Below, one piece after another: positions 24,208 through 39,600 of a DNA stretch of 64,000 bases. Source of the DNA: a bacterium (GTDB lineage Bacteria; Electryoneota; RPQS01). Numbering within the stretch: the first letter of the stretch is position 1; each line of letters starts with the position of its first letter. Below the pieces are notes generated by a model. It ran no database searches. It worked only from the letters and a program-made list of their open reading frames with translations, and was not told the origin of the DNA. The stretch is taken from positions 5,042-69,041 of the forward strand of contig JAHJDG010000009.1 of assembly GCA_018812265.1 (NCBI GenBank). Direction: 5' to 3'. The position numbers and the translations under genes were made by a program.

Positions 24208-24385
24208 CTTCCGGCCGGGTTGCGCGCGGGTTGTTGGTCGTGCGTCATTAGACATATAGCGCTTAACCCGGCTCGGCGGTGGAAGGCGATTCTGGACGCC
24301 CGCGCAGTGCCATATAAGCGATAACCTAAACAATCTGCGCGCGATGTCCAGAATGACAAGTGGAGATGTAGCAAATCAAGGAATA
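24208..24385 (+). promoter_or_regulatory. Copy 3 (full length) of the shared leader element, upstream of the GH57-clan gene.
   Basis: About 75% identical to copy 2 over ~170 nt. Inverted repeat ATTCTGGACGCC...GATGTCCAGAAT with a 9-10-bp stem. Confidence 0.65.
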
Positions 24386-24387
24386 CG

Positions 24388-27300
24388 ATGATGAGAAATG
24401 TTGCGTTGACTATGCTGATTCTGGGTGTTGCGATCGGATCTGTTGCCGCTCCGGTGCACACGACGTACATCTGGCACATGGAGCAGCCGATTTACTGGCC
24501 CGCCGCTTCCACGTGGCACGCGGGCTATCAGACGGCGTGGGAGTCCATCGTGCTGAAGGACGGCGGCGCGCCCCACCCGGAAAACGACGTGCGGGCGATT
24601 TTCTCGGTAGCCGACCGGGTGGCCGCCTATCAGTACCGACCGCGCGATGCGATACAGGCGATGACGGGAGCGGACGCGGGAGCGCAGGTGACGTACACTG
24701 GCGGATTGATCCGCAACGTGGCCAGTCTGGGAGCGGCCGGGCAGCTTGGATACACCTCCAACTGGAATCAACCGTTCATTACGGGACGCGGGTGGAATAC
24801 GAGCGGCGGCAGACCGCGACTGGAGATGACCATTATTCCCTATCACCACGCGCTGGCACCACTGGTGGATCGCGCCGTGTTGAAAAAGGAAATCCAGATC
24901 TATCAGCACGTGTATCCGCAAGTTTGGGGAAGCACGCCGCCCGCTTCGGTGGGATTCTTCCCGCCGGAGCTGGCCTCCAGCGAGCGAATCATTCCCGTGC
25001 TTGCCGAGTGCGGGATTGGTTGGTGTTTTGTCCCTTCCAATCATCTGTCACGCGCCTGCTCGAACTTTCCGTTGGTGTTGGGCACGGGCGGCGAAAACTG
25101 CGATCCGCCCAACCGGGCCGATCAGATCAATCCCTCGTCCGATCACTGGTTTTCGATGACGATCAGCCGGGGCTGCACGCCGACGGACGCCGTGCCGTTT
25201 TCGTTTCAACTCCACTGGGCGGAGCAGGTTGATCCGCAAACCGGAACTCCGGCACGGGTAATCGTCGTACCGGTGGCGATGGCGATGAGCTGGCAGGATG
25301 GATATCAAGTATACGGCGTGGGCGACGTCAACACGATTGCGCCGTGGAACGATCCGGCCCGTCCGATGCTGGTGGCCCTCGGACATGACGGCGACAACGC
25401 GTTCGGGGGCGGATACTCCTACTACATGGAGAGCGTGCCGGGCTTCACTTCGCAAGCGGTGGCACAGGGGTATGAGCCGACGACCGTTCCGGAGTATCTG
25501 GCCGATCATCCGGTGCCGACTTCGGACCTCGCGCACGTTGAAGACGGAGCCTGGATAAACGCCGACGGGGATTTCGGCAGTCCGGATTTCATCAACTGGA
25601 ACTGGCCGCCCTACAACGCGAGCGGACAATTCGACATTCCCAACGGCTGGGCGCTCGATATCCGAAACTGGGCGGTGATCACGGCGGCCACGAATCGCGT
25701 GGTGACGGCGGAAGCGGCGGCGGGCGGAAGCTCGATTGCGGCGATCCAGAATCCGACCACGACCTCGCCGGCGGCGATTGATCTGGCGTGGCACTTTCTG
25801 CTTGGATCGCTGAATTCGGGATATATGTATTACGGCTCGGCACTCGACATGGAGATGAAGCCGACGGTGGCCTGCAACATCGCGACGGACTGGGCGGATC
25901 AAGTTCTGCCGGGCGCGGGCGACCCGATTCCGCCGACGATCTGGATTTTGCAGCAGCATCCGCACAATCCGGGCGGAATCGGATTCGGATCGCTGTGGGG
26001 CTATCAGCAGACGGTGCAGCCGCGCGAGTTCTACGTATGGACGTTCATCTACGACGTTTCAGGGGTCTCTTCCGCAACGTTTTACTATCGTCTTGATGCG
26101 GACGGAATGAATCCGCTGTCATCCACGCAGAACGAGACGTTTGCGGGAGGCGGTGAAGTTTCCACGTGGCGGTCGAGGGAGATGAACCGTCGGGCATTCC
26201 CCGCCGGGAACGTATATAATGATCCGTCTATTGTGTTCGGGGAGATGCCCGACTACATCGCGGAGCAGTTCACCTACTATGTGAATGATGCCGAGATCGT
26301 GGACTCGGGCGGAGTTCTCGTAGACTACTACGTAGAAGCGATGGATTCGCTGGGGAACATCGCCCGCTCCGACATCTATCATACCTACGTGGATTCGGGG
26401 TCGGGAGGTTCGCCCGGCAATCGCGTGTGGTGGACACCCGAAGAGCCGGAAGGCGGGGAGAACGTCACGATCTATTATGATGCGGAGGCGGGGCCGCTGC
26501 CGTCGGGGACGAATCCAGTGTACATTCACATCGGGCACTCGGGATGGCAGGGGATTCTCAATCCCGATCCGCAGATGACCTACGACACCGGCGAAGAGGC
26601 TTGGCGATACACGTACTCCATTCCCTTAACGGCGACCGCGGTGGATTTCGTTTTCCAAGACGGCCTTGGTCATTGGGACAACAATAACGGCGCCGACTGG
26701 CACATCCCAACCACACCGGGCGGTTCCGGTTTCGTGATGGACGGCAGTCGCGATGGTGCCTCCGTGGTTGTGGCGGAGGCAGGCGGGATTACGCTCTGGG
26801 CAGGTTGGGACGGACGGGAATTGTACGTGGCTACGTCGCGCGTTCAGGGCACGGCCTACGATCAATTCATCTTCGTGGCTTCGCCGCCGGGAGCGATGAG
26901 ACCAGCACCGTGGGCGAAGTCAGGCCAAGTGGCGACATGGGCGGCCTATCTGGCGGAGGAAGGGAGCAACGGGTACAACGCTTGGTATGACACACAGGGG
27001 AGCGCTGTCAAAGCCGCCGGGAGCGTGCTGGAGGGAGCAGTGGACCTGACCGGAGAATTGGGGACGGTTCCGGGAGAGGTATGGCTGTGTTGCGGTAGAT
27101 ATCAGACGGCGGATGGAGGGATTTTGGCGGCTCAGGCACCGGCGGCGGTGGCTCCGGGCGGTCACATTGAGGCATCCGAATGGGTGCGATTGGTTCTGCA
27201 GCCGGACTCCCTGACAATTTCGGTGGTGGGACCGACAACCATTGAACTCCGCTGGTCTGCCGTCGTTGGTGCTACGGAATATGCCGTATTTCGGGCGGAT

Positions 27301-27405
27301 AGCCTATCCGGTAGTTTTGTTGAGGTTGGCCGAGTGTCATCCTTGTCATTTCAGGACTCGCCTGCCTCAGCAAGTGGAAAATATCAAGTAAGAGCTTGTT
27401 ATTGA
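24388..27405 (+). CDS. GH57/GH119-clan glycoside hydrolase-like enzyme (putative alpha-glucan-active) with an internal CBM25-like starch-binding domain and a C-terminal Fn3-like domain.
   Basis: GH57-like regions: YIWHMEQPIYW (region I-like), FFPPELASSE (WxxE-like nucleophile region) and LGHDGDNAFGGG (HDDGEKFG-like). CBM25-like ...VTIYYD...FVFQDGLGHWDNNNGADW. Signal peptide. Confidence 0.6.
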   Translation: MMRNVALTMLILGVAIGSVAAPVHTTYIWHMEQPIYWPAASTWHAGYQTAWESIVLKDGGAPHPENDVRAIFSVADRVAAYQYRPRDAIQAMTGADAGAQVTYTGGLIRNVASLGAAGQLGYTSNWNQPFITGRGWNTSGGRPRLEMTIIPYHHALAPLVDRAVLKKEIQIYQHVYPQVWGSTPPASVGFFPPELASSERIIPVLAECGIGWCFVPSNHLSRACSNFPLVLGTGGENCDPPNRADQINPSSDHWFSMTISRGCTPTDAVPFSFQLHWAEQVDPQTGTPARVIVVPVAMAMSWQDGYQVYGVGDVNTIAPWNDPARPMLVALGHDGDNAFGGGYSYYMESVPGFTSQAVAQGYEPTTVPEYLADHPVPTSDLAHVEDGAWINADGDFGSPDFINWNWPPYNASGQFDIPNGWALDIRNWAVITAATNRVVTAEAAAGGSSIAAIQNPTTTSPAAIDLAWHFLLGSLNSGYMYYGSALDMEMKPTVACNIATDWADQVLPGAGDPIPPTIWILQQHPHNPGGIGFGSLWGYQQTVQPREFYVWTFIYDVSGVSSATFYYRLDADGMNPLSSTQNETFAGGGEVSTWRSREMNRRAFPAGNVYNDPSIVFGEMPDYIAEQFTYYVNDAEIVDSGGVLVDYYVEAMDSLGNIARSDIYHTYVDSGSGGSPGNRVWWTPEEPEGGENVTIYYDAEAGPLPSGTNPVYIHIGHSGWQGILNPDPQMTYDTGEEAWRYTYSIPLTATAVDFVFQDGLGHWDNNNGADWHIPTTPGGSGFVMDGSRDGASVVVAEAGGITLWAGWDGRELYVATSRVQGTAYDQFIFVASPPGAMRPAPWAKSGQVATWAAYLAEEGSNGYNAWYDTQGSAVKAAGSVLEGAVDLTGELGTVPGEVWLCCGRYQTADGGILAAQAPAAVAPGGHIEASEWVRLVLQPDSLTISVVGPTTIELRWSAVVGATEYAVFRADSLSGSFVEVGRVSSLSFQDSPASASGKYQVRACY

Positions 27406-27567
27406 TAGGTTACCGGACGTAAAAGACGAGTAGATGGGCAAATTGAACGGCATTCCTGTGCAAGCCACGACGCAGGGGTTCTCCGGCTTGACCTCATGGC
27501 GAAACCGGCGGGTTCGTGCCATTGGGAAAGGGATTCAAACACAATTTGTTAGCGGGTCACTTTTCCA

Positions 27568-27595
27568 TTGACAAATTCTCAGGAATTGATAAGTT
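27568..27595 (+). promoter_or_regulatory. Candidate sigma-70-type promoter for the TonB-receptor operon.
   Basis: TTGACA-16nt-TAAGTT, about 60 nt upstream of 27658. Confidence 0.35.
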
Positions 27596-27657
27596 AATTC
27601 TATCGCAGTGCGTTCGTCGGCGGGTCTCGTTCCCGCCATGCGAAAGCAACCGATTTC

Positions 27658-30438
27658 TTGGAGTCATTGTCCATGTCCCACCGGAAATACGCCTCCTCTC
27701 TCATGGCTTTCATCATGAAGTGCATTTGGGTCGTCAGCCTGCTCGTGGCCGGCAGCGCCGTCTTTGCCGGAACGGTCGGTAAAATCGCCGGCCGGATTAC
27801 TGATGCACAAAGCGGTGATCCCGTAATCGGGGCAGCGGTGATGATCGTGGGAACGTCGCTGGGAGCAGCCACGGACTTGAAGGGCGATTTTTTCATTCTC
27901 AACGTTCCACCGGGCAAGGTAGATATCCGGGCCAGTGCTCTGGGGTATGGTACGCAGGTGATGAGCGGCATTCAAGTGATCTCGGACCAGACCGCCAATG
28001 TTGACTTCGCGTTCACCGAGGAAGCGCTGATGGGAGAAGAGGTCATCGTGTATGCCGAGCGCAAGCTGATCGAGATGGACCGGACGTTCGGAACGGCGAC
28101 GGTAGGCGCGCAGGACATTGGAGCACTGCCCGTCACCAACCTTAGTCAGGTTATTGAGATTCAAGCGGGCGTAGTGGACGGGCACTTCCGAGGCGGGCGG
28201 AGGAATGAAGTTCTTTACCTCGTGGACGGCTTGTCGGTGACGGACGCCTACGACAACTCGCAGGGCACGCAGGTGGACGACCAGATCGTCGAGGAACTGC
28301 AGGTGATTTCGGGCACATTCAACGCCGAGTACGGTCAGGCGATGTCGGGCGTGGTGAATATCGTGACCAAGGAAGGAGCGAGCGAGTACGGCGGATCGTT
28401 CAGCTCGGAATTCGGCGACTACCTTTCGAACCGTGACGACGTCTTTCTGAACATCGAAGACGTTTCGCCGCTGGCGATCCAGGACTATTCGGGCACGCTC
28501 TACGGACCGGTACCGCGTGTCGAAGGACTCTCGCTTTTCGTCAGTGGCCGTTATCAGGATGATAACGGCTGGATGTACGGGCAGAATCGTTGGAAGCCGA
28601 CGATTCAGATCGTGGAAGAAATCCTGACCACCGGCGACACCGATCCTTTCGGGGACAACAGCTATTCGCCGATGAACTACAATATTGAGAGTTGGGGTCA
28701 TGGGAAGCTCTCCTACGACGTCACCGGTAAGATCAAGCTGAATTATTCGTCGCTGTTCAGCGGCCGGACGTACAAGGACTACGCGCAAGACTGGAAGTTC
28801 GCTCCGTTCGCCACTCTTCGCCGCTACCGCACGGGGCGAACCAATTTTATCAAACTGAATCATGCCTTGACGGCGTCGGCTTTCTATGAGGTGGCCGCCG
28901 CCAACAGCTTTTCCGAATATCAGCATTATCTCTACGAAGACCCGTTCGATTCCCGCTACGTGGATCCGGCTTGGGCAGACATTGATCCGGGCTTCACGCT
29001 CAACGCCGCCGGCAATGATCTCTCGCGCTATCGGCGATGGACCAACACGAACGAAGTTCTTGGCCACATGACGTGGCAGGCCAACAAGCAGCATCTTTTC
29101 AAGTTCGGTTTCGACGTCAAGCTGCATGATCTCTTTTTCGAAGACATCAATCTGACGGACACCAGCCGGGCGGAGTTGTTCCGCATCAACGACGTCGGGA
29201 TTGACCCGTATTTCGAACCGATGATTTTGGACGTGTCATCTCCGGCGCACGACCGCTATCGCAACCATCCGTGGGAGTTTGCGCTATACGTACAGGACAA
29301 GTTTGAGGTGAAATCGCTCATCATCAACGCCGGGCTGCGGTTCGACTATTTCGAGCCGGACGGTCGCGTTCTGGCCGACGAGAAGGATCCCAACGTCTAC
29401 AATCCCCTGAGAACCGAACGAGCCGCCGATCCGCTGTCAACGCGACTCGGCTACTGGTATAAGGAGGCCACCGCCAAGTATCAGTTGTCGCCTCGGCTCG
29501 GCATCGCCTATCCGATGAGCGACCGCGGGGTGTTCCATTTTGCCTACGGTCATTTCGTGCAGCGGCCGACGTTCGAGAGGTTGTACGCCAATCCGGAGTA
29601 TGAAATGGAGTCGGGCGTGGGACTGAACACGGTGATGGGAAATCCGGACCTGAAGATGGAGGAGACCACGACGTATGAGTTTGGATTTCAGCAGGAAATC
29701 ACCGAGGACTTGGCCATCAACACCGCGCTCTTCTATCGCGATATCCGCAACCTGGTGGCAACGGATAAGATCGTCGAAACGTATTCCTCGGGAACGAAAT
29801 ATTCCCAATACGTGAACCGATCCTTCGGCGAGGTGAAGGGAATCACGCTCTCTTTCGATAAGCGCTACGCGAACAATTTCAGCTCGTTCGTGGATTATAC
29901 CTATCAAACGGCCAAGGGGGACGCTTCCGATCCGCAGTCGGCGTACAATGATCAGCGGGGGAACAATCCCCGCGAGCCGCAGCGGCAGCTGGTGCCGTTG
30001 GATTGGGATCGCCGCCACACGTTGAACGTCAGCCTTACCTATGCGACCGTCGGGCCGTCAGGCTGGGGAACCACGTTGCTTGGGAAGTACGGCAGCGGCC
30101 TGCCCTACACTCCCGAGGAGCAGGCGGGCGTGCGCACCGGTTTCGAGAATGACGGCCGCCGTCCGGATTTCTACAACCTTGATCTTTCCGTCTACAAGGA
30201 GTTTTCGCTCTCGTCGAAGTTGAAGCACAAGATCGTACTCATGCTGACCGTGCTGAACCTTCTTGACACGGACAACGAGGACAACGTATACCGCGATACG
30301 GGCCGGGCCGGCTACTCGGCGGAAGAGCGATACGCGGTGGAGGATCCTTCCTTCAACACATTGGAAGAATTCTACAACAATCCATCCCACTATTCGCGTC
30401 CGCGCATGGTGAAAGTGGGCGTCAAATACGAGTTCTGA
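27658..30438 (+). CDS. SusC-like TonB-dependent outer-membrane receptor (N-terminal carboxypeptidase-regulatory-like domain + plug + barrel).
   Basis: GRITDAQSGDPVIGAAVMIVGTSLGAATDLKGDFFIL (CarbopepD_reg). Plug EEVIVYAERK...LPVTNLSQVIEIQAGV. 926 aa. The start may be one of the internal Met (27673/27703/27715). Confidence 0.8.
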   Translation: MESLSMSHRKYASSLMAFIMKCIWVVSLLVAGSAVFAGTVGKIAGRITDAQSGDPVIGAAVMIVGTSLGAATDLKGDFFILNVPPGKVDIRASALGYGTQVMSGIQVISDQTANVDFAFTEEALMGEEVIVYAERKLIEMDRTFGTATVGAQDIGALPVTNLSQVIEIQAGVVDGHFRGGRRNEVLYLVDGLSVTDAYDNSQGTQVDDQIVEELQVISGTFNAEYGQAMSGVVNIVTKEGASEYGGSFSSEFGDYLSNRDDVFLNIEDVSPLAIQDYSGTLYGPVPRVEGLSLFVSGRYQDDNGWMYGQNRWKPTIQIVEEILTTGDTDPFGDNSYSPMNYNIESWGHGKLSYDVTGKIKLNYSSLFSGRTYKDYAQDWKFAPFATLRRYRTGRTNFIKLNHALTASAFYEVAAANSFSEYQHYLYEDPFDSRYVDPAWADIDPGFTLNAAGNDLSRYRRWTNTNEVLGHMTWQANKQHLFKFGFDVKLHDLFFEDINLTDTSRAELFRINDVGIDPYFEPMILDVSSPAHDRYRNHPWEFALYVQDKFEVKSLIINAGLRFDYFEPDGRVLADEKDPNVYNPLRTERAADPLSTRLGYWYKEATAKYQLSPRLGIAYPMSDRGVFHFAYGHFVQRPTFERLYANPEYEMESGVGLNTVMGNPDLKMEETTTYEFGFQQEITEDLAINTALFYRDIRNLVATDKIVETYSSGTKYSQYVNRSFGEVKGITLSFDKRYANNFSSFVDYTYQTAKGDASDPQSAYNDQRGNNPREPQRQLVPLDWDRRHTLNVSLTYATVGPSGWGTTLLGKYGSGLPYTPEEQAGVRTGFENDGRRPDFYNLDLSVYKEFSLSSKLKHKIVLMLTVLNLLDTDNEDNVYRDTGRAGYSAEERYAVEDPSFNTLEEFYNNPSHYSRPRMVKVGVKYEF

Positions 30439-30490
30439 CGATCTGATTTTCCACCCGTTCTCCGATTTCTAACGTTATCATCTCTACTCG

Positions 30491-33400
30491 ATGCACATGA
30501 GAAGAACCATCAGCATAACCGTCTTTGTGGTGATCTGTCTGACGCTTGTGGCCCTGGTCGGCTGGAGTCAAGGTCCGGAGGATTGGGAGTACTACAAGGG
30601 CAGTACGCTCAATCGCGCCAGAAATACGATGAGCGGAAACCTCGTTCGAACGGTGTTCTACAACTACGGTCTGACGGGGAATATCGGGGAGATCTCGGGC
30701 GAGTGGCCGATCGGTACGGGCAACGAATATGTGGGGGACGTCTCGCCGCTGGTGGGGATTGAATTTGTTCATCCTTCGGGCGACACTTTGCGGTCGGTTC
30801 TAACCTCCGACGGGCCGCGCGGGAATCCCGACGGACCTCCAGGCGGCGGAACCTTCTGGGGATTCGAACCTCTACCGGGTTTTGCGGCACTGCCCGCGAT
30901 CGGCGAGGATCCGAAGGTGGCAATGTCGAATCAGCCGCTCACCTGGCCGGACTTCTGGCCCGACAAATACGTCAATGATCCCAACGATCCGACCTGGCGC
31001 ATCCAGAGCGATCGGGGCTGGCGAGGATCGTGGAATGGGTATTTCGGCAAGAACGTGACGAACGCCGATCAAGAGACCTACTTCGTAACGGACGATCAGG
31101 CGGACATGGAGTGGTTCGAGCGATCCGACTCGCTGGGCAACGTCTATCGCTATTATCCCAATCCCGAAGATTCAGCTCGTCGGGGACTGGGGATTCGAGT
31201 GTCGGTGCGCGGTCTGCAGTGGGCGCATTTTCTGGCGCAAGACTGCATTTTCTGGCTCTATGATATTACCAACATCAGTTCCTACACCTACAACAAGGTC
31301 GCGTTCGGGATGGTAGTGGGAACGCTTTCGGGCGGGCGGCAGGATTCGCGGGACGATCTGGCCTATTTCGACCTCGGCTACGATATCACCTACAGTTGGG
31401 ACAGCGACGATCAGGGTTCTGCCGGCTGGATTCCGGTGCGTCCGGGCGAGATCAACGTCGGATACGTGGGCTATGCCTTTTTGGAATCACCCGGCAATCC
31501 CTATGACGGGATTGACAACGACGGCGACGTCCCCAGTCCAAGCTACGTATTGGAACCGTCCGATTTCCAGGCGCGATCCTACAACGTGGGAAATCGCTTG
31601 TTCCTGATCAATTACAGCACCTTCGAGCGGATTGACACGACTATGCCGACTCAGGGGATTTCGTTTACCGCCTACGGGCGCCAGTTTAACGTATATCCCG
31701 GCCAGATGTTGGAGGAAAACGGACGGAACAATATTGACGACAATCTGAACGGACTGATTGACGAACGGATCGAAGACCATCTCGGACTGACCTACAAGGA
31801 TTACTTCAACAATCGCGGACTCGATAATCTCCTGATTGACGAGGCGCGCGATGACGGCATTGACAACGACGGCGACTGGGATCCGCTGACCGACGACGTG
31901 GGAGCGGACGGCGTGCCGGCTACGGGAGACTACGGGGAGGGCGACGGCCTTCCGACGAACGGCGAGCCGCATTTCGACCGGACGGACGTGGACGAATCGG
32001 ATCAGATCGGACTGACGTCCTTCGAGTATTTCAGTCCTCCGGGAGCGGTTCGGATGCGGGACGACGCAGCGCTCTGGACCCGGATGGAACCGGGTCACTT
32101 CGACGTCACCCCCAACACTCCCGAAGACGGCGATTTCATCTACGGTTCGGGCTACTTCCCGCTTCGTCCGGGGCAGACGGAACGATTTTCGATGGCCTTG
32201 TTGTACGGCGAGGATTTCGCGGATCTGACCGAGAACAAAATCACCGTCCAGCAGGTTTACGACGAGAATTACAATTTCGCCCGCCCGCCCGAGAAGCCCA
32301 CCGCCTGGGTGGTACCGGGCGACGGCCGGGTAACCCTTTACTGGGATGACGTTGCCGAGTCGTCACTTGATCCCGTTTCCGGCTACGACTTTGAAGGGTA
32401 CAAGATCTACCGCGCCACCGATCCGAACTTCCGCGAAGTGTTTTCGATCACCGACGGATTCGGGCGGCGCGTATTCCACCGACCCATCGCCCAGTTCGAT
32501 CTGATCAACGAATATGAGGGTTTCTTCCCGATCATTCGCAACGCCGTGATCGTGTATCTTGGCGCTAATACGGGCCTCCAGCACTCGTGGACGGACACCA
32601 CGGTGGAGAACGGTCAAACGTATTACTACGCGGTGGTCGCCTACGACCACGGGGATATCGAGAAGGCGATTCTCCCGGCGGAGAACAATAAGACCATCGT
32701 GGTGGACGAGGCGGGCAACGTCACTCTGGACAAGAATACGCTCCTCGTCACTCCCCGCGCTCCGGCGGCCGGATATCAGGAACCGCGCCTTTCTTCGGTT
32801 GCACACGTCGGCGGTTTCTCGACCGGGATGATCGGTGTTGAGGCGTTGGATCCGCGGGAGATTCAAGACGACCGGCAATACGACTTCCGGTTCTCGGCGC
32901 AGCCATCAGACACGCCCAGTGTGCCGTCCCACGTCGAATATCACGTGCTTCGTCAGTCTGACGGACAGACGGACACGTTGATCGGCGGCAAGCTCCTCGT
33001 GCCGGAACCGAATCTTCTTCCACAGGCGGATCCATTCGCGGCCTACTATGACTCGCTGTTCAATCTTCCACCCGGCACGTATGATCCCGCCCTCTACTTT
33101 ACCGTGGCGGGAACACAGGTTTTTGACGGGCAGCGGGCGTACATGCTGCTCCCACGGGACGTCAAGCTGATCCCACAGGCCAGCGGATGGGCGGATACAA
33201 GCCGGCACTTGTACAGCTACCGCTTCACCAAGGCGTCCTTGTGGTATCAGGGCTATCAGATCGTGACCGGCGTAGCCTATCCCTCCGACTACCACGTGGA
33301 ATGGTATGAAGGCGTGGTGGATACATCCACGTACCTCAATTTCTACAACCTGTTGATTTATCCGGCGCGACCGGTGAACTTCCGCGTGAAGAACCTGAAC

Positions 33401-33976
33401 CGGAATGAGTATATCGAATTCGGATTCATCGAGCAGGCGGCCACAACGAATGGAGTCGTTGATCCGGGCGAGGTGATTCTCTTTCTCGAAAACGACACTC
33501 TGGTGACGTGGGCGCTTGAATTTCGCCGGACCGTGGGGGGAAGTGACAGCACGCGACCGGATAACGGCGATGACCTGCAGCTTCGATTGTATCAGCCGTA
33601 TTCCGACGCGGACGTCTATCGGTATACGACCCGCGCCGCGCGCGTGGATCCGGGGGCGGTGAATCTCGATCGCATCCGGGTGTACCCCAATCCCTACGTA
33701 GCGGTATCGGCGCAGGAGCCGGCCAACCGGTACGGCGAGGGCCGCGGCGAACGTCGGATTTCCTTCATCCATTTGCCGGATCGCTGCACCATTCGCATTT
33801 ATACGGTGCGCGGTGACCTTGTGGAAACCATTGAACACCTGACGACCATTGACGACGGAATGGAATCGTGGGACTTGCGGAGTCGCGACGGATTAAACGT
33901 TGCCTATGGAGTCTATCTCTACCACATTGATTCGCCCTACGGCGAGAAGATCGGACGCTTTGCGGTGATCAAATGA
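30491..33976 (+). CDS. Large secreted protein (1161 aa) with thrombospondin-type-3-like Ca-binding DNDGD repeats and a Por-type C-terminal domain. It sits where a SusD would be expected.
   Basis: Signal peptide. GIDNDGDVPSP and DDGIDNDGDWDPLTDDVGADGVPATGDYGEGDGLPTNGEPHFDRTDVDESDQ. C-terminus VYPNPY...TIRIYTVRGDLV...GVYLYHI...GRFAVIK. 52 nt downstream of the receptor. Confidence 0.6.
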   Translation: MHMRRTISITVFVVICLTLVALVGWSQGPEDWEYYKGSTLNRARNTMSGNLVRTVFYNYGLTGNIGEISGEWPIGTGNEYVGDVSPLVGIEFVHPSGDTLRSVLTSDGPRGNPDGPPGGGTFWGFEPLPGFAALPAIGEDPKVAMSNQPLTWPDFWPDKYVNDPNDPTWRIQSDRGWRGSWNGYFGKNVTNADQETYFVTDDQADMEWFERSDSLGNVYRYYPNPEDSARRGLGIRVSVRGLQWAHFLAQDCIFWLYDITNISSYTYNKVAFGMVVGTLSGGRQDSRDDLAYFDLGYDITYSWDSDDQGSAGWIPVRPGEINVGYVGYAFLESPGNPYDGIDNDGDVPSPSYVLEPSDFQARSYNVGNRLFLINYSTFERIDTTMPTQGISFTAYGRQFNVYPGQMLEENGRNNIDDNLNGLIDERIEDHLGLTYKDYFNNRGLDNLLIDEARDDGIDNDGDWDPLTDDVGADGVPATGDYGEGDGLPTNGEPHFDRTDVDESDQIGLTSFEYFSPPGAVRMRDDAALWTRMEPGHFDVTPNTPEDGDFIYGSGYFPLRPGQTERFSMALLYGEDFADLTENKITVQQVYDENYNFARPPEKPTAWVVPGDGRVTLYWDDVAESSLDPVSGYDFEGYKIYRATDPNFREVFSITDGFGRRVFHRPIAQFDLINEYEGFFPIIRNAVIVYLGANTGLQHSWTDTTVENGQTYYYAVVAYDHGDIEKAILPAENNKTIVVDEAGNVTLDKNTLLVTPRAPAAGYQEPRLSSVAHVGGFSTGMIGVEALDPREIQDDRQYDFRFSAQPSDTPSVPSHVEYHVLRQSDGQTDTLIGGKLLVPEPNLLPQADPFAAYYDSLFNLPPGTYDPALYFTVAGTQVFDGQRAYMLLPRDVKLIPQASGWADTSRHLYSYRFTKASLWYQGYQIVTGVAYPSDYHVEWYEGVVDTSTYLNFYNLLIYPARPVNFRVKNLNRNEYIEFGFIEQAATTNGVVDPGEVILFLENDTLVTWALEFRRTVGGSDSTRPDNGDDLQLRLYQPYSDADVYRYTTRAARVDPGAVNLDRIRVYPNPYVAVSAQEPANRYGEGRGERRISFIHLPDRCTIRIYTVRGDLVETIEHLTTIDDGMESWDLRSRDGLNVAYGVYLYHIDSPYGEKIGRFAVIK

Positions 33977-35001
33977 GCTCTTCAACCTTCAGCAAGACCG
34001 TGGCGCTGGTGCTGGCGCTTATGATGACGACCTCCGTTTGGGCCCAGAGCAAGGTGGGAACTACGGCGGCGCCGTTTCTGGGGATTGCCGTCGGCGCTCG
34101 GGCGGTCGGGATGGGCGGGGCATTTACGGCCGTAGCGAACGACGCCACCGCTCTTTATTGGAATCCCGCCGGGATCGCCGGAATGGAGAAATTCTCGGCG
34201 AATCTGGTGCACACGGACTGGCTGGCCGATCTCAGTTTCGACGTGGTGGGGGCGGTTCTGCCGATGGGCGACGCGGGAGTTTTGGGAGCACAGATTACGC
34301 TGCTCTCCATGCCCGATCAGGAGATCACCACGACTCGGCAGGGCGAGCAGGACGGCAACGGATTATACTTCAGCGCGGGCAGCATGGCGATAGCCGGCAC
34401 CTATGCACGGGCTTTCACGGATCGCTTCAAGCTGGGAATTACGGCTAAGTACGTTCACGAGTGGATCTGGCATGAGAGCGCCACCGGACTGGCTCTCGAT
34501 CTCGGCAGCCTCTACACGACGACGTTCAACGACATGCGGATCGGCGTGGCGATCACGAACTTCGGTGGCGACATGCGGATGGACGGACGCGATCTGGTTC
34601 ACAACCATGACGTGGACGGCACGCGGGAAGGGAACAATGACCGTGTTCTCTCCGATTGGCGGACGGACGACTGGCCATTGCCGCTCCAGATGCGGATCGG
34701 ACTGGCGATGGAAGTGCTGCAGGACGCCCGTCATCGGGTGACCGTGGCGGCGGACGCCGTGCATCCCAACGACAACTATGAGTACGTGAATTTGGGAAGC
34801 GAATGGGCCTATCGCGAGCAGTTCATGGTGCGGGCGGGATACAAGTCGCTTTTTCTTCCCGATTCGGAGGAATCGTTGACGTTCGGCTTGGGCGTACGCG
34901 TTCCGACGCGCGGCGGTCCCGAATTCGGTTTCGACGCCGCCTACGAGAATTTCGGAAGATTCGAGGCGGTGTACAAATACTCTCTGACGGTGTCCTACTA
35001 A
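33973..35001 (+). CDS. Outer-membrane beta-barrel protein, PorV/LptO-like (putative T9SS cargo shuttle) or FadL-like.
   Basis: Signal peptide. N-terminal motif GTTAAPFLGIAVGARAVGMGGAFTAVANDATALYWNPAG. Alternating beta-strand pattern, C-terminal aromatic Y. The start overlaps the upstream stop by 4 nt. Confidence 0.4.
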   Translation: MSSSTFSKTVALVLALMMTTSVWAQSKVGTTAAPFLGIAVGARAVGMGGAFTAVANDATALYWNPAGIAGMEKFSANLVHTDWLADLSFDVVGAVLPMGDAGVLGAQITLLSMPDQEITTTRQGEQDGNGLYFSAGSMAIAGTYARAFTDRFKLGITAKYVHEWIWHESATGLALDLGSLYTTTFNDMRIGVAITNFGGDMRMDGRDLVHNHDVDGTREGNNDRVLSDWRTDDWPLPLQMRIGLAMEVLQDARHRVTVAADAVHPNDNYEYVNLGSEWAYREQFMVRAGYKSLFLPDSEESLTFGLGVRVPTRGGPEFGFDAAYENFGRFEAVYKYSLTVSY

Positions 35002-35067
35002 CTCAACTTTGGCGAACTGGAACAACTGAGAATCATCCATACACATTCAATCTCGGAGGTCGTCATC

Positions 35068-36576
35068 ATGAGGTCATCTCTACTGACTGCAATCGTGGTG
35101 ATCCTTCTCGCCACGACGGTGGCCTGGGCCACCAACGTTACTTTTCAGGTGAACATGGGCTTCCAGCGAACGCTGGGGAACTTCGATCCGACTACGAACA
35201 GCGTGGTGGTTCGCGGCGGATTCAACAACTGGTCAGGCAACGGCAACATGCTCACGGATCCTGACGGCGACAGCATCTATGTGGGTACCTGGGACGTTCC
35301 CACCGCCGTTCCCGACACCACTTACCAGTACAAATTCCTGATCGTGGGTGGAGCATCGGACGTTTGGGAAGCGGATCCCAACCGCGAATTCACAGTGGGT
35401 GCGGATACCCTGACGCTGCCGGTGGTGTGGTTTAACCGTCAAGAGCCGGTGGTAACTGCCAACGTCGAGGTGAGTTTCAGCGTGGACATGAACATTCAGA
35501 TCCTCGTCGGGAGCTTCAATCCGGAAGTGGACTGGGTAATCATCCGAGGAAATCACACTAACCTCGGGAATTGGGGCGGGGAAATCCGATTGGATGAAGT
35601 GACCGGCAGTCCGGGGATCTACTCGATTCTCATCCAATTCGACGATATGCCCGTGGGCACGGGAGTCGGCCATAAGTTTCTGATTCTCGAGGGCGGTGTG
35701 GGTGGAACCGCACATTGGGAGTCCGGATCGGATCGCCTTTTCACTCCGACCGGGAACGAACCTGACAACTTGCCACCTCCCAGCGGCAACGGCTACGGTG
35801 AGATTCTGCTACCGGTTGTCTACTATTCGAATACCGGACCGGACGACATCATCACGAATCCGGTCAATGCCGTATTCCAGGTGGATATCCGTCCACTCTA
35901 TGGACGCATACGGGACGAGGGATACGTTCAGGACGTCCAGGGCGGAGATACCATTTTCTTCGTCGAGAGCATCCAAATCGCCGGAGACAACATCTGCGGT
36001 TGGCCGTGGGGCAGTTTCCCGTTGGAGTACTTCCTCAACGACAATGGACAAGACGGTGACGTGGCGGCGGGCGACTCCGTGTGGAGTCTAACCGTCCTCT
36101 TCCCGGCCGCATCCGCCCGCAGCCAGATTTACAAATACGGCGCAAACCAACTGGACGCCGAGGCAGGATTCGCCATGAATCACATCGTGAATCTTGACGA
36201 CAGCCAACCTACGTTCATGGTTCCGTCCGATTGTTGGGGATCACCGGATACGCTGTACGACGATTGGCCCTGCCTGCTGGCGGGCAGCGATGGGGCGGCG
36301 GAACTCCATCCGCTGGAGTATCAGCTTTCGCAGAACTATCCCAATCCGTTCAACCCGTCAACGATGATCAGCTTCGTCCTGCCGCGCGCCGAGCTGGCGA
36401 AGCTGGCGGTATTCGACGTTTTGGGTCGCCAAGTCGCAACGATCGTGGACGGCCGTCTCGAGGCCGGTAAGCATATCGTTTCGTTCGACGGATCGTGGCT
36501 TTCGTCCGGTGTGTATTTCTATCGTCTGGAAGCCGGTTCGTTCCGCGCCACGCACAAGATGCTCCTGCTCAAGTAA
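35068..36576 (+). CDS. Secreted glucan-binding protein with three CBM20-like starch-binding modules and a T9SS CTD (functional analogue of SusE/F?).
   Basis: Three modules beginning VTFQVNM..., VEVSFSVDMN... and VNAVFQVDIR..., with conserved Trp/Tyr ligand positions. CTD YPNPFNPSTMISFVL...GVYFYRL...KMLLLK. Confidence 0.65.
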   Translation: MRSSLLTAIVVILLATTVAWATNVTFQVNMGFQRTLGNFDPTTNSVVVRGGFNNWSGNGNMLTDPDGDSIYVGTWDVPTAVPDTTYQYKFLIVGGASDVWEADPNREFTVGADTLTLPVVWFNRQEPVVTANVEVSFSVDMNIQILVGSFNPEVDWVIIRGNHTNLGNWGGEIRLDEVTGSPGIYSILIQFDDMPVGTGVGHKFLILEGGVGGTAHWESGSDRLFTPTGNEPDNLPPPSGNGYGEILLPVVYYSNTGPDDIITNPVNAVFQVDIRPLYGRIRDEGYVQDVQGGDTIFFVESIQIAGDNICGWPWGSFPLEYFLNDNGQDGDVAAGDSVWSLTVLFPAASARSQIYKYGANQLDAEAGFAMNHIVNLDDSQPTFMVPSDCWGSPDTLYDDWPCLLAGSDGAAELHPLEYQLSQNYPNPFNPSTMISFVLPRAELAKLAVFDVLGRQVATIVDGRLEAGKHIVSFDGSWLSSGVYFYRLEAGSFRATHKMLLLK

Positions 36577-36696
36577 CTCACGAATTACTGTTTTCGCAGC
36601 TCTGACTTGGGAGGGGAGCGCATCCACCGGGCGCTCCCCTCCCGTATCACGGCCCGCATCCAGCCGAAGGGTCATGCTTTCATGAGGGATCAAACG

Positions 36697-39600
36697 ATGT
36701 ATCGTTGTCTGGCCATTGCCGCCGCCTTGCTCATCCTCAGTGGTGTTTCACTGGGGCAACCCGTGTACTGGATACCGGAAGCCCCACGGGTGGGCGACGT
36801 GCTGACAATTTACTATGACACTCGCCCCGCCGGAGGGCTGGAACCTTCCGTCAGCCAGATTTGGTTGCACTGGGGAGTGTACGATCCGAGCTCGGGCAAC
36901 TGGTCCACGCCGCCGCAGGGAATCTGGCCGGCCGGCTCGCGGCTGCATTCGGACAACATCGCTCTGCAGAGTCCCATGACCCGCCACGCGGATTCGGTGT
37001 TCTATGTCGCGATAGATTTCGACACATCCGTCCACGATATCCAGTTCGTGTTTACCGACGGCCAGAGCACGTGGGACAACAACAATGGAAACAATTGGAC
37101 GATCCATTTTCAGAGTCTCGGCACGGTCGCCTGGTGGACGCCTGAAGAACCCGAGCCCGGCGATACCATCCGGATCTACTACGACGTGGTAGCGGGGACT
37201 CTGCCCGACGGTTCCCAGGCCGTGCGACTCCACTGGGGCGTGAACGAGCAGGGCCATGGGAACTGGCGACTTCCGCCGTCGGTGATCTGGCCTCCCGGAA
37301 CGATCTCGATGGGACAAGCGGCGCAGACGCCGATGATCTCTCAAGGAAACGGAATCTTCGCGCTCAACATCGGTACCAACGATTCCATTGCAACACTGCA
37401 TTTCGTTTTCACTGACGGGACCAACTGGGACAACAACAATACTCAGAATTGGAACATTTTTCTGACGGAACCGCCGATCCCGATCTTTACTTGGGTGGCG
37501 TTTCGCTATGATCCGCGTTCGGCGTATGCCACCTACATCGGCGCAAACGTCAATTCGCTCAATCTGGCGGGAGCATTCAACGGCTGGTCCACGACGGCGA
37601 CTCCGCTCACGCGGCTCGATCCCTACGGCAACCGGTGGGGCGAAGTACAGATTCCGGTGGGCGCCAATGAATACAAATTCGTCGCCAACGGCAACATCTG
37701 GATCACCGATCCCGATAATCCGCAAACGGCCGGTGGTGGATACAATAATTCGCTGTTGACCGCGGTCGTAGACTCGCTTCCGCAGGTTCATGACGTTCAG
37801 CCCGGAGAGAACCGGGTTTTTCCGGCCGACAGCACCGTGGTCGTTACGGTTCGAATTCGACCGGGAGACTTGGGGCCGGGACTGGCCGGGGCTCCGACGG
37901 TGCTCTTGAATGGTCAGCCGTGGGGATCGGTCTGGAACGCCGGACAATCCCTCTTGACTCTGTCTTCACTCCCGGATGATGACGGTCTGGTGTTTCTTCA
38001 GATCAGCGCCACCGACTCGGCAGGCCGCACGGGAAGCCAACATTTGACGTATGGCTTCCGTCAATCCGGTTATCGCGCGGTGGACGCGAAAAACGACGTT
38101 CTGTACACCCCGCCGCAATCCGCCGCCACGTTCGATTTGACCGGTCTGACGATCCGCGAGCGCGCGGGCGGAGATTCCCTCGATTTCACGGTGTCTTTGG
38201 CGGAAATCGGCGGCGCAACGTTCCCGATGATTCTACTCACGGCGTCGAGCTCGGTGAATGGTTGGGCGGCAGTGCCGGGACTGGCGGCGGAAATTCGCGT
38301 GCCGGATTTGGGCGCGGGCGGAGCAGCGATTCTGCTGCTCGATCCCCTCAGCCCTCACTACAATCCAAGCGTACACAATCGGATCCACCCGGCAGGCGAT
38401 CTGGCAGTGGCCGGCCCGGCGGTTACGTTTTCGATTGATCCCACCACCCGCAGCTACAAGGCAATTGTCGCAAAGAGCGATTTGGAGTCGAGTCTCGGTC
38501 TCTATCAATCCGACTGGTACTATACGTGTTCGAGTCTGATGCCCGCCTCGTCCGCCGACGAATATTGCACGGAGATCACCTCGGCCATGGGCGGAGTGTC
38601 GGGAATCGAGGAACCGGACGTTCTGGACGTGTTGTTTATGCAGGCGGCCGACGTCCAAACGAAACTGATGAAAAACTACGGAACCACTCGCCGAGCCACG
38701 TTGGACGCTCCAGGACGCGGCGTGGCGAAGATTCATCCGGATGATATCGGCCCCAACGTCGGCACGGCCGGGCCCTATTGCACGGTGTTGACGCGCGGCG
38801 CACCCACGATTGACACGACGCGCGTCGTCTGCGGGCGGGTAACGTCATCGGTAAGCGTAGCCCAAGCGTGGCTTGTGCAGAACAACGTCTGGACACCGGT
38901 CACGCTCGTACAGGACACGTTTGCCCGCAACGTAACGCTGGTGGAGGGTCCCAATTCGTTCCAAGTGCGAGCCGTGGATACCAACGGGGACAGCGGACGC
39001 TCGCCAACGATGATCTATACTCTGGTGATTGATCACTCGCCGCGCATCAGCATCACGACTCGCCAGGAAGGTCTGCAGGGCGCTCTCGATGCTTCGGGAA
39101 CAACGGATCCCGAACAACAGCCGCTCACGTTCGCGTGGTCTGCGGATCCGGGCAATCCCGGTCCGGTCACTCTGCAGACCGCGAACACCGCCGTGGCCCG
39201 ATTCACGTTTCCCACTACTCCGGGCGAGTACTACTTCAATCTCACGGTCACCGATCCCGACACTCATTCCAGCCACGGCCGGACGCTGTTCAACGTCCAG
39301 CCGGGATCCGTAGACGGTTTCTCACTCAACGAGGCGGTGGACTGGGTGATGAACGCAATGATTTACGAGATCTATCCGCGTTCCTACTCGGCGACCGGCA
39401 ATCTGGCGGGGATCACCGCCGACATGCAACGGATCGCGGACCTGGGCGTGAACTGCATCTGGCTCATGCCGATTTTCGACGGGCCATCGGACCACGGATA
39501 TGAAATCACCAACTACTACGCCATCGAGCAGGATTACGGAACCGAGCAGGACCTGCGAGATCTGGTGGCCGTCGCTCACGCCCGCGGAGTCCGGGTGATT

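What the first reader, a model, noticed from the sequence alone, without database searches (positions are those of the whole stretch)
30491..35001. Giant DNDGD-repeat T9SS protein and PorV-like barrel translationally coupled to the SusC-like receptor: a candidate SusD-replacing module
The 1161-aa ORF begins 52 nt after the TonB receptor. It carries thrombospondin-type-3-like Ca-binding repeats and a Por CTD. The next gene overlaps its stop by 4 nt and has the N-terminal GxxAAxFLxIxxGARAxGMGGAFxAxAxDAxAxYWNPAG signature reminiscent of PorV/LptO-type barrels. A T9SS shuttle protein encoded inside a nutrient-uptake operon is unusual. It suggests a dedicated export or attachment route for this cargo, or a cargo-receptor complex.
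Basis: inference. Interest (0 to 1): 0.7.

Follow-up and report, generated by a model that had tools for sequence, protein, structure and literature searches.

The report
TonB receptor, surface protein, PorV-like anchor
Inside a starch-utilisation locus sits a three-gene outer-membrane cassette (TonB-dependent receptor, an uncharacterised 1161-aa secreted protein and its own PorV/PorQ-type barrel) that recurs in hundreds of genomes from relatives of the Bacteroidota and probably does the job SusD does in Bacteroides, although no experiment has tested this.

Summary
The ORFs, the 52-nt gap, the 4-nt ATGA overlap and the PorV-like N-terminal signature are all real. "Giant DNDGD-repeat protein" is overstated: there are two DNDGD motifs and one related motif, and no thrombospondin hit.

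The 1161-aa protein ("BIG") matches no Pfam family, yet it has at least 1537 relatives (50%-identity clusters, E<=1e-30). It is not a lipoprotein. Its model contains a galactose-mutarotase-like beta-super-sandwich, a fold shared with glucoamylase N-domains. It also has an FN3-like domain, a variable beta region and a divergent T9SS C-terminal domain that best matches the retained tail of PorZ.

The 342-aa protein is a genuine PorV/PorQ-family 14-strand barrel, closest in fold to F. johnsoniae PorV. It is not an ortholog of PorV or PorQ.

Receptor, BIG and barrel are adjacent in about 70 of 84 related loci; the rest are mostly cut by contig ends. These loci span Calditrichota, KSB1, WOR-3, Gemmatimonadota, Marinimicrobia, Ignavibacteria, Rhodothermia and Fermentibacteria. 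Some lie next to beta-glucan or amino-sugar enzymes, and one genome carries two copies.

Best reading: T9SS exports BIG, its dedicated barrel holds it at the surface as PorQ holds PorZ, and it serves the receptor as a glycan-capture partner. I found no paper describing this cassette. Interest 0.7.

The parts
27658..30438 (+). TonB-dependent receptor (926-aa maximal ORF; the likely true start is the ATG at 27673). Architecture is CarboxypepD_reg N-domain, Plug and a 22-strand-type barrel. First gene of the cassette.
   Evidence: Pfam hits PF13620, PF07715, PF00593 and PF25183. It fails the SusC/RagA model TIGR04056 at 63.9 against 368 bits. Homologs lie directly upstream of BIG in 68 of 84 related loci.
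30491..33976 (+). 'BIG': a 1161-aa secreted protein of an uncharacterised family. Second gene of the cassette.
   Evidence: No Pfam hit. At least 4370 homologs, all named 'hypothetical'. 1537 clusters at 50% identity with E<=1e-30. AlphaFold model has pLDDT 81.
30491..30571 (+). Type-I signal peptide of BIG (aa 1-27, ...LVALVGWSQ). No lipobox.
   Evidence: Read directly from the sequence. Model helix spans aa 3-26. Only 1 of 84 family N-termini has a lipobox-like motif.
31811..32050 (+). The most conserved stretch of BIG (aa 441-520). It is an acidic Asp/Gly-rich loop region containing DGIDNDGDWDPLTDDVGADG...TDVDESDQ. I infer it binds Ca2+. AlphaFold cannot place it.
   Evidence: Identity is 0.73-0.76. 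pLDDT is below 50 for aa 463-505. Invariant D/E/G columns are listed.
32771..33610 (+). Variable beta-sandwich region of BIG (aa 761-1040). Candidate specificity module. Some relatives carry Reg_prop beta-propeller domains, whose position within the protein was not determined.
   Evidence: Identity is 0.17-0.37. Reg_prop hits occur in 6 of 37 diverse relatives. Its divergence tracks that of the receptor: r 0.85, partial r 0.59.
33668..33973 (+). Divergent T9SS C-terminal domain of BIG (aa 1060-1161). It has a conserved 15-aa insertion, QEPxNxYxxGRGERR, at aa 1069-1084 (33695-33742).
   Evidence: hhalign against the window's canonical CTDs gives probability 96%, E 2e-9, with the insertion as a gap. 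All 17 family CTDs hit the PorZ C-terminus, best E 6e-7. Only 1 of 5 canonical CTDs does so, at E 0.025.
33973..35001 (+). PorV/PorQ-family 14-stranded outer-membrane barrel (342 aa, signal peptide ...SVWA/QSK). Third gene of the cassette, overlapping BIG's stop by 4 nt.
   Evidence: NF033709 scores 210 against a cutoff of 90. The equivalogs PorV (84/250), PorQ (91/220) and PorV2 (79/325) all fail. The only PDB sequence hit is PorV 6h3i_F, E 2.6e-10. The model has pLDDT 83 and 14 long strands. Foldseek's best matches are PorV 8gl6_F and 6h3i_F.
35068..36576 (+). CBM20 starch-binding protein with a canonical type-A T9SS CTD. A frequent fourth gene after the cassette.
   Evidence: Pfam CBM_20 and Por_Secre_tail, plus TIGR04183. 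Orthologs follow the barrel gene in 34 related loci.
36607..40959 (+). GH13 alpha-amylase (1450 aa) with Ig_N_CWD1/CBM, PKD and a T9SS CTD. This is the locus's secreted depolymerase.
   Evidence: Pfam Alpha-amylase at E 2.7e-49, plus Ig_N_CWD1 and Por_Secre_tail.
24388..27405 (+). GH57-like protein with CBM25/CBM53, upstream of the receptor. It belongs to the same alpha-glucan locus, which spans about 18215-58407.
   Evidence: Pfam hits. The remaining locus genes are annotated.

Best explanation
The three genes 27658-35001 encode a conserved outer-membrane module used for TonB-dependent glycan uptake by relatives of the Bacteroidia that lack SusD.

Proposed steps:
1. BIG is exported to the periplasm by its type-I signal peptide.
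2. T9SS carries it across the outer membrane, using its C-terminal domain as the signal.
3. The C-terminal domain is not cleaved and linked to LPS. Instead it stays bound to the dedicated PorV/PorQ-family barrel encoded immediately downstream. This is how PorQ holds PorZ and PorV holds PorU in Porphyromonas gingivalis.
4. The barrel keeps BIG beside, or on top of, the co-encoded TonB-dependent receptor.
5. BIG's carbohydrate-type super-sandwich and its variable region capture alpha-glucan chains or oligosaccharides. These are released by the locus's T9SS-secreted amylase and CBM20 protein and are handed to the receptor.

Shown by the evidence: the gene order and its conservation, the family assignments, the predicted folds and the CTD homology. 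Inferred: surface retention on the barrel, contact with the receptor and glycan binding.
For: 1. Cassette conservation. In 84 related loci, 66 have receptor, BIG and barrel in that order and 4 have receptor, barrel, BIG. The remaining loci are mostly cut off by contig ends. BIG-to-barrel gaps are mostly -4 to +30 nt. Independent look-ups with Pfam labels agree.

2. The cassette is independent of substrate. It occurs beside GH16 plus GH30, beside GH18/GH85 plus NamZ plus an S66 peptidase, and beside a lipase and an FG-GAP CTD protein. Here and in most close relatives it lies beside amylase and CBM20.

3. One MAG carries two cassettes. All three proteins are 44-45% identical between the copies, so the unit duplicates whole.

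4. BIG needs a route to the surface other than lipidation. It has a type-I signal peptide, and only 1 of 84 relatives has a lipobox-like motif. Its C-terminus is homologous to T9SS CTDs.

5. The BIG CTD leans towards the retained PorZ type. All 17 family CTDs hit the PorZ C-terminal region, against 1 of 5 canonical CTDs from the same window. The barrel's best equivalog score is PorQ. PorZ keeps its CTD and is anchored on PorQ (PMC10947112, section 3.3). Type-B CTD proteins are likewise anchored on adjacent PorP/SprF barrels (PMC9143113).

6. The barrel is PorV-like in sequence and fold. BamG is a precedent for a FadL/PorV-type barrel that binds another barrel laterally while holding a surface protein with its loops (PMC12578637).

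8. No SusD appears in the window or in the sampled neighbourhoods.
Against: - No physical interaction was tested.
- Mirror-tree correlations among the three proteins are high (r 0.75-0.88), but partial correlations are weak. They do not single out a CTD-barrel pair.
- The BIG CTD is not more conserved relative to its body than the CTD of the ordinary CBM20 cargo. Conservation therefore gives no extra support for a retained CTD.
- The PorZ similarity is weak in absolute terms: 18-22 bits for this protein. Foldseek's PorZ hit has TM of only 0.09-0.13.
- One short contig shows a 997-aa relative with no barrel gene after it.
- The core, which is the conserved part, stays the same across loci for different glycans. 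That fits a structural or docking role better than direct sugar recognition.
Confidence: 0.55

Rival explanations
1. The PorV-like barrel is a locus-specific shuttle or docking platform for all CTD-bearing proteins of the locus (the CBM20 protein, the GH13 amylase, GH31, the esterase). It concentrates them near the receptor. BIG would be just one client, or not a client at all.
For: The window encodes at least five canonical type-A CTD proteins around the cassette. Of 85 sampled neighbour proteins in related loci, 21 carry Por_Secre_tail. PorV proper binds many CTDs (PMC5562754, as cited in PMC10947112).
Against: The invariant neighbour of the barrel is BIG, not the enzymes. The enzymes differ from locus to locus and are absent from some neighbourhoods. 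BIG has its own family-specific CTD with a conserved insertion. Gaps between BIG and the barrel are -4 to +30 nt.
Confidence: 0.15
2. BIG is an unrecognised enzyme, such as a new glycan-active or polymer-modifying family, and not a binding or lid protein. The cassette would couple extracellular catalysis to import.
For: The core has many invariant acidic and aromatic residues: D158, D193, E195, D201, D202, R230, R240, D288, D289, D304, E332, E502, D504 and others. Its closest folds are domains of glycoside hydrolases and phosphorylases. The family is unnamed, so no function is excluded.
Against: The matched domain is the non-catalytic N-terminal super-sandwich of those enzymes. The model has almost no helices and no (alpha/alpha)6 or TIM barrel. 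The same conserved core sits in alpha-glucan, beta-glucan and amino-sugar loci, which argues against a substrate-specific active site. No profile hit to any catalytic family was found.
Confidence: 0.15
3. The 342-aa barrel is a FadL-type diffusion channel for a hydrophobic or amphipathic substrate, or an accessory of outer-membrane protein assembly like BamG. On this view it has no relation to T9SS cargo.
For: FadL, TodX and BamG structures are all significant Foldseek hits with E 1e-9 to 1e-7. Some homologs carry precomputed Toluene_X hits, and JGI names some of them 'long-subunit fatty acid transport protein'. There is a weak NCBIfam BamG hit at E 2e-4.
Against: PorV is the best hit by sequence and the only PDB sequence hit. 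It is also the best hit by fold, at TM 0.70 against about 0.55 for FadL and 0.47 for BamG. The PorV/PorQ family model is matched over its full length above cutoff. The context is glycan uptake with T9SS cargo.
Confidence: 0.04
4. The barrel is simply the organism's housekeeping PorV or PorQ, and its gene happens to lie in this locus.
For: It belongs to the PorV/PorQ family. The rest of the genome could not be inspected for another copy.
Against: It fails every equivalog cutoff. The adjacency is conserved in about 70 loci across many phyla. Two diverged cassette copies, each with its own barrel, occur in one MAG.
Confidence: 0.02

Closest known systems
PorQ-PorZ and PorV-PorU sub-complexes of the Porphyromonas gingivalis T9SS attachment complex
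   Same: A PorV/PorQ-family 14-strand barrel is paired with a large beta-rich surface protein that is itself a T9SS substrate. The proposal here is that the protein's CTD is retained and serves as the anchor. The BIG CTD best matches the PorZ C-terminus, the barrel's best equivalog score is PorQ, and some BIG relatives even carry Reg_prop propellers like those of PorZ.
   Different: Neither partner is an ortholog, since all equivalog cutoffs fail. The pair is encoded in a cassette with a TonB-dependent receptor inside catabolic loci, and can be present in more than one copy per genome. PorQ-PorZ, by contrast, is a single housekeeping part of the secretion machine. BIG's core fold differs from PorZ's double propeller. 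There is no evidence for LPS delivery or sortase function.
SusC/SusD (RagA/RagB) pairs of Bacteroidota polysaccharide utilisation loci
   Same: A TonB-dependent receptor with an N-terminal carboxypeptidase-regulatory-like domain is followed directly by a gene for a surface-exposed partner. Both sit within a locus of secreted glycanases, CBM proteins and inner-membrane sugar transporters.
   Different: The receptor does not reach the SusC/RagA family threshold. The partner is not a SusD: it has no SusD Pfam hit, is beta-rich where SusD is helical/TPR, is 1161 aa and is not a lipoprotein. A third component, the PorV-like barrel, is obligatory. Surface display would depend on T9SS and not on lipoprotein export.
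Type-B CTD proteins anchored on adjacent PorP/SprF-family barrels (SprB-SprF, PG1035-PorP)
   Same: The genetic logic is the same: a T9SS cargo gene lies next to the gene for its own outer-membrane barrel, and the barrel retains it at the surface (PMC9143113).
   Different: The barrel family differs (PorV/PorQ, not PorP/SprF). The CTD is nearer to type A and PorZ than to type B; only weak CHU_C hits were found, in 7 of 37 relatives.
BamG-BamH in the Bacteroidota BAM complex
   Same: A FadL/PorV-type 14-strand barrel binds another outer-membrane barrel laterally and holds an extracellular protein through its loops (PMC12578637). This is the architecture proposed here for barrel, receptor and BIG.
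   Different: The function is different (outer-membrane protein assembly). Sequence similarity is only weak, with NCBIfam BamG at E 2e-4 and TM 0.47. The surface partner is not CTD-bearing.
N-terminal beta-super-sandwich (galactose-mutarotase-like) domains of GH15 glucoamylase/glucodextranase and GH65/GH94 phosphorylases
   Different: Sequence identity is only 7-12%. BIG lacks the catalytic (alpha/alpha)6 domain that follows in those enzymes.

Membership tests
PorV/PorQ family (NCBIfam NF033709; Pfam PF19572) | Full-length match to the family HMM above the curated cutoff | tested here: met
   NF033709 scores 210.3 bits against a cutoff of 90, covering residues 30-341 of 342. PF19572 scores 43.3 against 27.
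PorV/PorQ family (NCBIfam NF033709; Pfam PF19572) | 14-stranded FadL-type outer-membrane beta-barrel, closest in fold to PorV | tested here: met
   The model has pLDDT 83 and 14 long strands. Foldseek's top hits are PorV 8gl6_F (E 6e-15) and 6h3i_F (TM 0.70), with FadL at about 0.55.
PorV proper (NF033710), PorQ proper (NF033711) and PorV2 (NF052325) equivalogs | Score above the equivalog cutoff, indicating orthology and the same function | tested here: not met
   Scores against cutoffs are 84.4/250, 90.9/220 and 79.5/325. Only the N-terminal ~190 residues align.
PorV proper (T9SS shuttle) | Binds cargo CTDs and docks on the SprA/Sov translocon | not testable with these tools
   This needs biochemistry or complex modelling.
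T9SS type-A C-terminal sorting domain (TIGR04183 / PF18962) | Match of the C-terminal ~75 aa to the curated CTD model | tested here: inconclusive
   Pfam PF18962 does not hit the full-length protein at E<=0.01, and NCBIfam TIGR04183 does not hit its isolated CTD at E<=1. Sixteen of 17 relatives' CTDs hit TIGR04183, best E 5e-6. hhalign against the window's canonical CTDs gives probability 96%, E 2e-9, with a 15-aa insertion. The domain is homologous but divergent.
PorZ-type retained CTD | The CTD is not cleaved after secretion and binds a PorQ-type barrel | not testable with these tools
   Only similarity was tested. All 17 family CTDs hit the PorZ C-terminal region with E down to 6e-7, against 1 of 5 canonical CTDs.
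SusD/RagB family | SusD Pfam domains (PF07980, PF12741, PF12771, PF14322), a helical/TPR fold and an N-terminal lipobox | tested here: not met
   No Pfam hit at all. The model is almost entirely beta. The signal peptide is type I, and only 1 of 84 relatives has a lipobox-like motif.
SusC/RagA family (TIGR04056) | Score above the family cutoff across plug and barrel | tested here: not met
   63.9 bits against 368.25, and only the N-terminal 2-208 of the model is matched. PDB sequence hits are limited to the plug of YncD and PqqU.
Canonical Bacteroidota PUL | An adjacent susC-susD gene pair | tested here: not met
   No SusD was found among the window's annotated ORFs. None appears among the 25 most frequent families of the 85 sampled neighbours.
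Thrombospondin type-3 repeat proteins (PF02412) | Tandem array of Ca-binding DxDxDGxxDxxD repeats detected by the family model | tested here: not met
   No Pfam hit at E<=0.01. There are two DNDGD motifs about 116 aa apart plus one related motif.
FadL/TodX hydrophobic-compound channels (PF03349) | Match to the Toluene_X model, and closest fold to FadL | tested here: not met
   No PF03349 hit for this protein at E<=0.01. FadL structures rank below PorV, at TM about 0.55 against 0.70.

The most novel reading that the evidence does not exclude
The receptor, the PorV-like barrel and BIG form one stable tripartite outer-membrane machine. It would be the counterpart of SusCD in the non-Bacteroidia FCB lineages (Calditrichota, KSB1, Marinimicrobia, Gemmatimonadota, WOR-3, Ignavibacteria, Rhodothermia and others). 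A T9SS-delivered, barrel-anchored protein would act as the substrate-capturing lid of a TonB-dependent transporter. The conserved core would dock on the receptor, and the variable module would set glycan specificity. T9SS would then be a prerequisite for nutrient import as well as for enzyme secretion.
Probability: 0.4. Interest if true: 0.85.

Novelty: new variant of a known kind. Interest (0 to 1): 0.7.

Why it matters
SusC/SusD pairs define how Bacteroidota capture glycans, and they are the basis for predicting polysaccharide use from genomes. Their sister lineages are abundant in sediments, oceans, soils and digesters. Those lineages have many TonB-dependent receptors and T9SS cargo enzymes but no SusD, so their loci escape PUL predictors.

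A conserved, easily recognised three-gene cassette would give a marker for such loci. It would assign a role to a protein family of more than 1500 clusters that has no Pfam model. It would also assign a role to the many 'extra' PorV/PorQ paralogs in these genomes. Finally, it suggests a new use of T9SS barrel anchoring, namely building a nutrient-import complex.

The idea can be tested in cultured hosts. NCBI-labelled Caldithrix abyssi sequences encode the cassette, and the type strain grows on starch (PMC5317091). Ignavibacteria and Melioribacteraceae relatives also carry the cassette.

Tried and rejected
1. Known-domain explanations for BIG. Pfam, NCBIfam and PDB profile searches returned nothing beyond the CTD and a marginal FN3 hit.

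2. Foldseek of the whole BIG model against PDB. It gave only low-TM multi-domain matches (PorZ top, TM 0.09-0.13). I treat these as weak.

3. The afdb50 fold library was unavailable.

4. CTD conservation as a test of retention. The BIG CTD-to-body identity ratio (0.55/0.45) is no higher than that of the ordinary CBM20 cargo (0.48/0.33), so the test does not discriminate.

5. Mirror-tree and partial correlations intended to pick out the barrel's partner. All components co-diverge, and the partials of 0.2-0.6 are not decisive. The CBM20-CTD comparison failed with NaN values.

6. Promoter and terminator scan of 24000-41500. It found fewer sites than in shuffles and none in the intergenic gaps, so it is uninformative beyond being consistent with one operon.

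7. Eight literature searches for the cassette found no description. The Caldithrix abyssi genome paper does not mention it.

8. Rejected: 'repeat protein', 'housekeeping PorV' and 'FadL channel'. The reasons are given under the rival explanations and membership tests.

Full report
**What is at the coordinates.** The window encodes, on the + strand, a 926-aa TonB-dependent receptor (27658-30438). After a 52-nt gap comes a 1161-aa ORF (30491-33976), and then a 342-aa ORF (33973-35001) whose ATG overlaps the preceding TGA as ATGA. The description of the large protein as a "giant DNDGD-repeat" or thrombospondin-type-3-like protein is not. It has two DNDGD motifs (aa 342 and 458) and one related NIDDNLNGLIDE stretch. 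No Pfam family matches it at all.

**Context.** The cassette lies in a locus of about 40 kb for alpha-glucan use. Its genes are:
- a CBM48 esterase with a CTD
- GH31
- a Na+/solute symporter
- a GH57-like protein with CBM25/53
- the three cassette genes
- a CBM20 protein with a CTD
- a 1450-aa GH13 amylase with a CTD
- an amylo-1,6-glucosidase-type protein
- MalK, a binding protein and two ABC permeases
- two more GH57-like proteins
- a GH31 with a CTD

At least five proteins carry canonical type-A T9SS tails, so the organism uses T9SS. No SusD homolog is present. The window is identical to a MAG record labelled only "bacterium" (KKH27_00755 / MBU1984411.1). The closest relatives are labelled Calditrichota and KSB1.

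**The small protein.** It matches the NCBIfam PorV/PorQ family model over its full length, at 210 bits against a cutoff of 90. It fails the equivalog cutoffs for PorV (84/250), PorQ (91/220) and PorV2 (79/325). Its only sequence relative in the PDB is Flavobacterium johnsoniae PorV (E 2.6e-10). An AlphaFold model built from 54 homologs (pLDDT 83) is a 14-strand barrel. Its best Foldseek matches are PorV chains 8gl6_F and 6h3i_F (E 6e-15, TM 0.69-0.70). These rank ahead of FadL and TodX (TM about 0.55) and BamG (0.47). The protein is a member of the PorV/PorQ family but a separate subfamily, not the shuttle PorV.

**The large protein (BIG).**
- It has a type-I signal peptide and no lipobox. Only 1 of 84 relatives has a lipobox-like motif.
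- The family is large and unnamed. There are at least 4370 hits in the 90%-clustered database, all "hypothetical" and without Pfam domains. In the 50%-clustered library there are 1537 clusters at E<=1e-30 and 5045 at E<=1e-10.
- An AlphaFold model from 56 homologs has pLDDT 81 and is almost entirely beta.
- Conservation splits the protein into four parts: a conserved core (aa 35-760), an FN3-like domain within it, a variable region (aa 761-1040) and a conserved C-terminal domain. The core includes an extremely conserved acidic Asp/Gly loop region at aa 441-520, which AlphaFold cannot place.
- In diverse relatives some members carry Reg_prop beta-propellers.
- A 61%-identical ortholog carries a 125-aa insertion between query residues 211 and 218. 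The insertion contains the starch-binding-type Ig_N_CWD1 domain, which scores above the Pfam cutoff.

These features fit a non-catalytic, modular glycan-binding surface protein. They do not prove it.

**The C-terminal domain.** Pfam's Por_Secre_tail model misses it. A profile of 17 family CTDs nevertheless aligns to the five canonical CTDs of this window with probability 96% (E 2e-9). The difference is a conserved 15-residue insertion, QEPxNxYxxGRGERR, after the first strand. The isolated family CTDs were scanned against NCBIfam. All 17 hit the C-terminal region of PorZ (best E 6e-7), all 17 hit PorU, and 16 hit the type-A tail. In the control, the window's canonical CTDs hit the type-A tail strongly and PorU as well. 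Only 1 of 5 hits PorZ, at E 0.025. PorZ and PorU are the T9SS substrates whose CTDs are not cleaved, and they are held at the surface by the barrels PorQ and PorV. [quoted passage not shown] The similarity is weak in absolute score, but it is specific relative to the control.

**Conservation of the cassette.** The loci come from Calditrichota, KSB1, WOR-3, Stahlbacteria, Gemmatimonadota, Marinimicrobia/Fidelibacterota, Ignavibacteria/Melioribacteraceae, Rhodothermia and Fermentibacteria, and from MAGs labelled Bacteroidota.

In the 84 loci held, 66 show receptor, BIG and barrel in that order, and 4 show receptor, barrel, BIG. The rest are mostly cut by contig ends. BIG-to-barrel spacing is mostly -4 to +30 nt. 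Independent look-ups with precomputed Pfam labels agree.

More distant family members sit in the same cassette next to other enzyme sets:
- GH16 plus GH30, a laminarin-type set
- GH18/GH85 with a CTD, NamZ, an S66 peptidase and a symporter, an amino-sugar or peptidoglycan-type set
- a GDSL lipase plus an FG-GAP CTD protein

One short contig has a relative without a following barrel gene. One Calditrichota MAG has two cassettes whose three proteins are each 44-45% identical between copies. The unit therefore duplicates and diverges as a whole, and the barrel is not a housekeeping PorV. Among 85 sampled neighbour proteins the most frequent families are Por_Secre_tail (21), alpha-amylase (7), CBM20 (6), GH94 (4), GH66 (3) and GH97 (2). 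SusD is not among the 25 most frequent.

**Proposed mechanism.** BIG is exported by Sec and then by T9SS. Its PorZ-like CTD stays bound to the dedicated PorV/PorQ-type barrel. The barrel places BIG next to the co-encoded receptor, where BIG captures glycan chains or oligosaccharides produced by the locus's secreted enzymes and feeds them to the receptor. There are precedents for each step:
- PorQ-PorZ and PorV-PorU (PMC10947112)
- type-B CTD proteins anchored on adjacent PorP/SprF barrels (PMC9143113)
- BamG, a FadL/PorV-type barrel that binds BamA laterally and holds surface BamH with its loops (PMC12578637)

The gene order, family memberships, folds and CTD homology are shown by the evidence. 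Retention of the CTD, contact with the receptor and glycan binding are inferred. I put confidence in this model at about 0.55.

**Rivals.**
- The barrel serves all CTD-bearing enzymes of the locus (0.15).
- BIG is an unrecognised enzyme (0.15).
- The barrel is a FadL- or BamG-type protein unrelated to T9SS (0.04).
- The barrel is a housekeeping PorV located here by chance (0.02).

**Tests that did not discriminate.** The CTD-to-body conservation ratio is similar for BIG and for ordinary CBM20 cargo. Mirror-tree correlations are high for all pairs (r 0.75-0.88) and the partial correlations are weak. Whole-model Foldseek matches have very low TM.

**Comparison with known systems.** The cassette works like a SusCD-type glycan import unit and like a PorQ-PorZ anchoring pair, but it belongs to neither.
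- The receptor fails the SusC/RagA threshold.
- BIG fails every SusD criterion: domains, fold and lipidation.
- The barrel fails the PorV and PorQ equivalog thresholds.

Eight full-text literature searches found no description of the cassette or of the BIG family, and the Caldithrix abyssi genome paper does not mention it. Subscription-only literature was not searchable.

**Verdict.** The finding is real, non-random and conserved. The repeat description and the "shuttle" label do not hold. I rate it a new variant of known kinds, namely TonB-dependent glycan loci and T9SS barrel anchoring. Interest is 0.7.

Noticed in passing
window 18215-58407: A locus of about 40 kb for alpha-glucan use. It has three GH57-like ORFs (24388-27405, 44688-47141, 50168-53656), two GH31, a GH13 and an amylo-1,6-glucosidase-type protein. 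It encodes two import routes across the inner membrane: an SSF symporter at 22601-24202, and MalK plus a binding protein plus two permeases at 43772-50095. The 1005-aa GH57-like/CBM25/CBM53 protein has no NCBIfam hit.
   Followed up: partly
window 14223-15842 (-), 18215-19804 (+), 35068-36576 (+), 36607-40959 (+), 55690-58407 (-): Five proteins carry canonical type-A T9SS C-terminal domains: a DUF5122 propeller protein, a CBM48 esterase, a CBM20 protein, the GH13 amylase and a GH31. The organism therefore relies heavily on T9SS for its starch enzymes. These CTDs served as the internal control for the BIG CTD.
   Followed up: yes
window 2010-12230 (-): Type IV pilus / type II secretion-like genes (T2SSF 7258-8460, a PilT-like ATPase 8484-9599, T2SSE with an MshEN domain 10536-12230). 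They sit with two sigma-54 response regulators (2010-3383, 4330-5697) and a PAS histidine kinase (5704-7248). They are unrelated to the finding.
   Followed up: no
window 43772-44842 and 44688-47141: The maximal ORF of the GH57/CBM20 protein overlaps the MalK-like ORF by 155 nt. The true start is probably further downstream.
   Followed up: no
L089 8827-14366; L086 3746-9017; L085 3022-8846: Distant cassette copies sit next to GH18/GH85 + NamZ + S66 LD-carboxypeptidase + SSF (a peptidoglycan or amino-sugar type set), next to GH16 + GH30 (a laminarin type set), and next to a GDSL lipase. The BIG relatives in L089 and L085 are 1495-1592 aa and carry faint Reg_prop propeller hits. The NamZ/LdcA association may be relevant to muropeptide scavenging described for Fidelibacter (PMC11652737 abstract).
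   Followed up: partly
L004 7971-15703 and L013 9911-17643 (WOR-3): Two BIG-family paralogs occur in tandem (about 1100 aa and 949 aa, the second with FlgD_ig/Por_Secre_tail hits), followed by a single PorV-like gene. This variant has two surface proteins per barrel.
   Followed up: no
neighbourhoods of L005-L084 (sample of 85 proteins, alignment A7): PPIC-type peptidyl-prolyl isomerase (rotamase) genes recur near the cassette, in 6 of 85 sampled neighbours. This may be a periplasmic chaperone link, or it may be coincidence.
   Followed up: no
window 31811-32050 (BIG aa 441-520): The most conserved segment of the whole protein is an Asp/Gly-rich acidic stretch that AlphaFold leaves unstructured (pLDDT below 50 for aa 463-505). 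It may fold only with Ca2+, or on a partner protein.
   Followed up: partly
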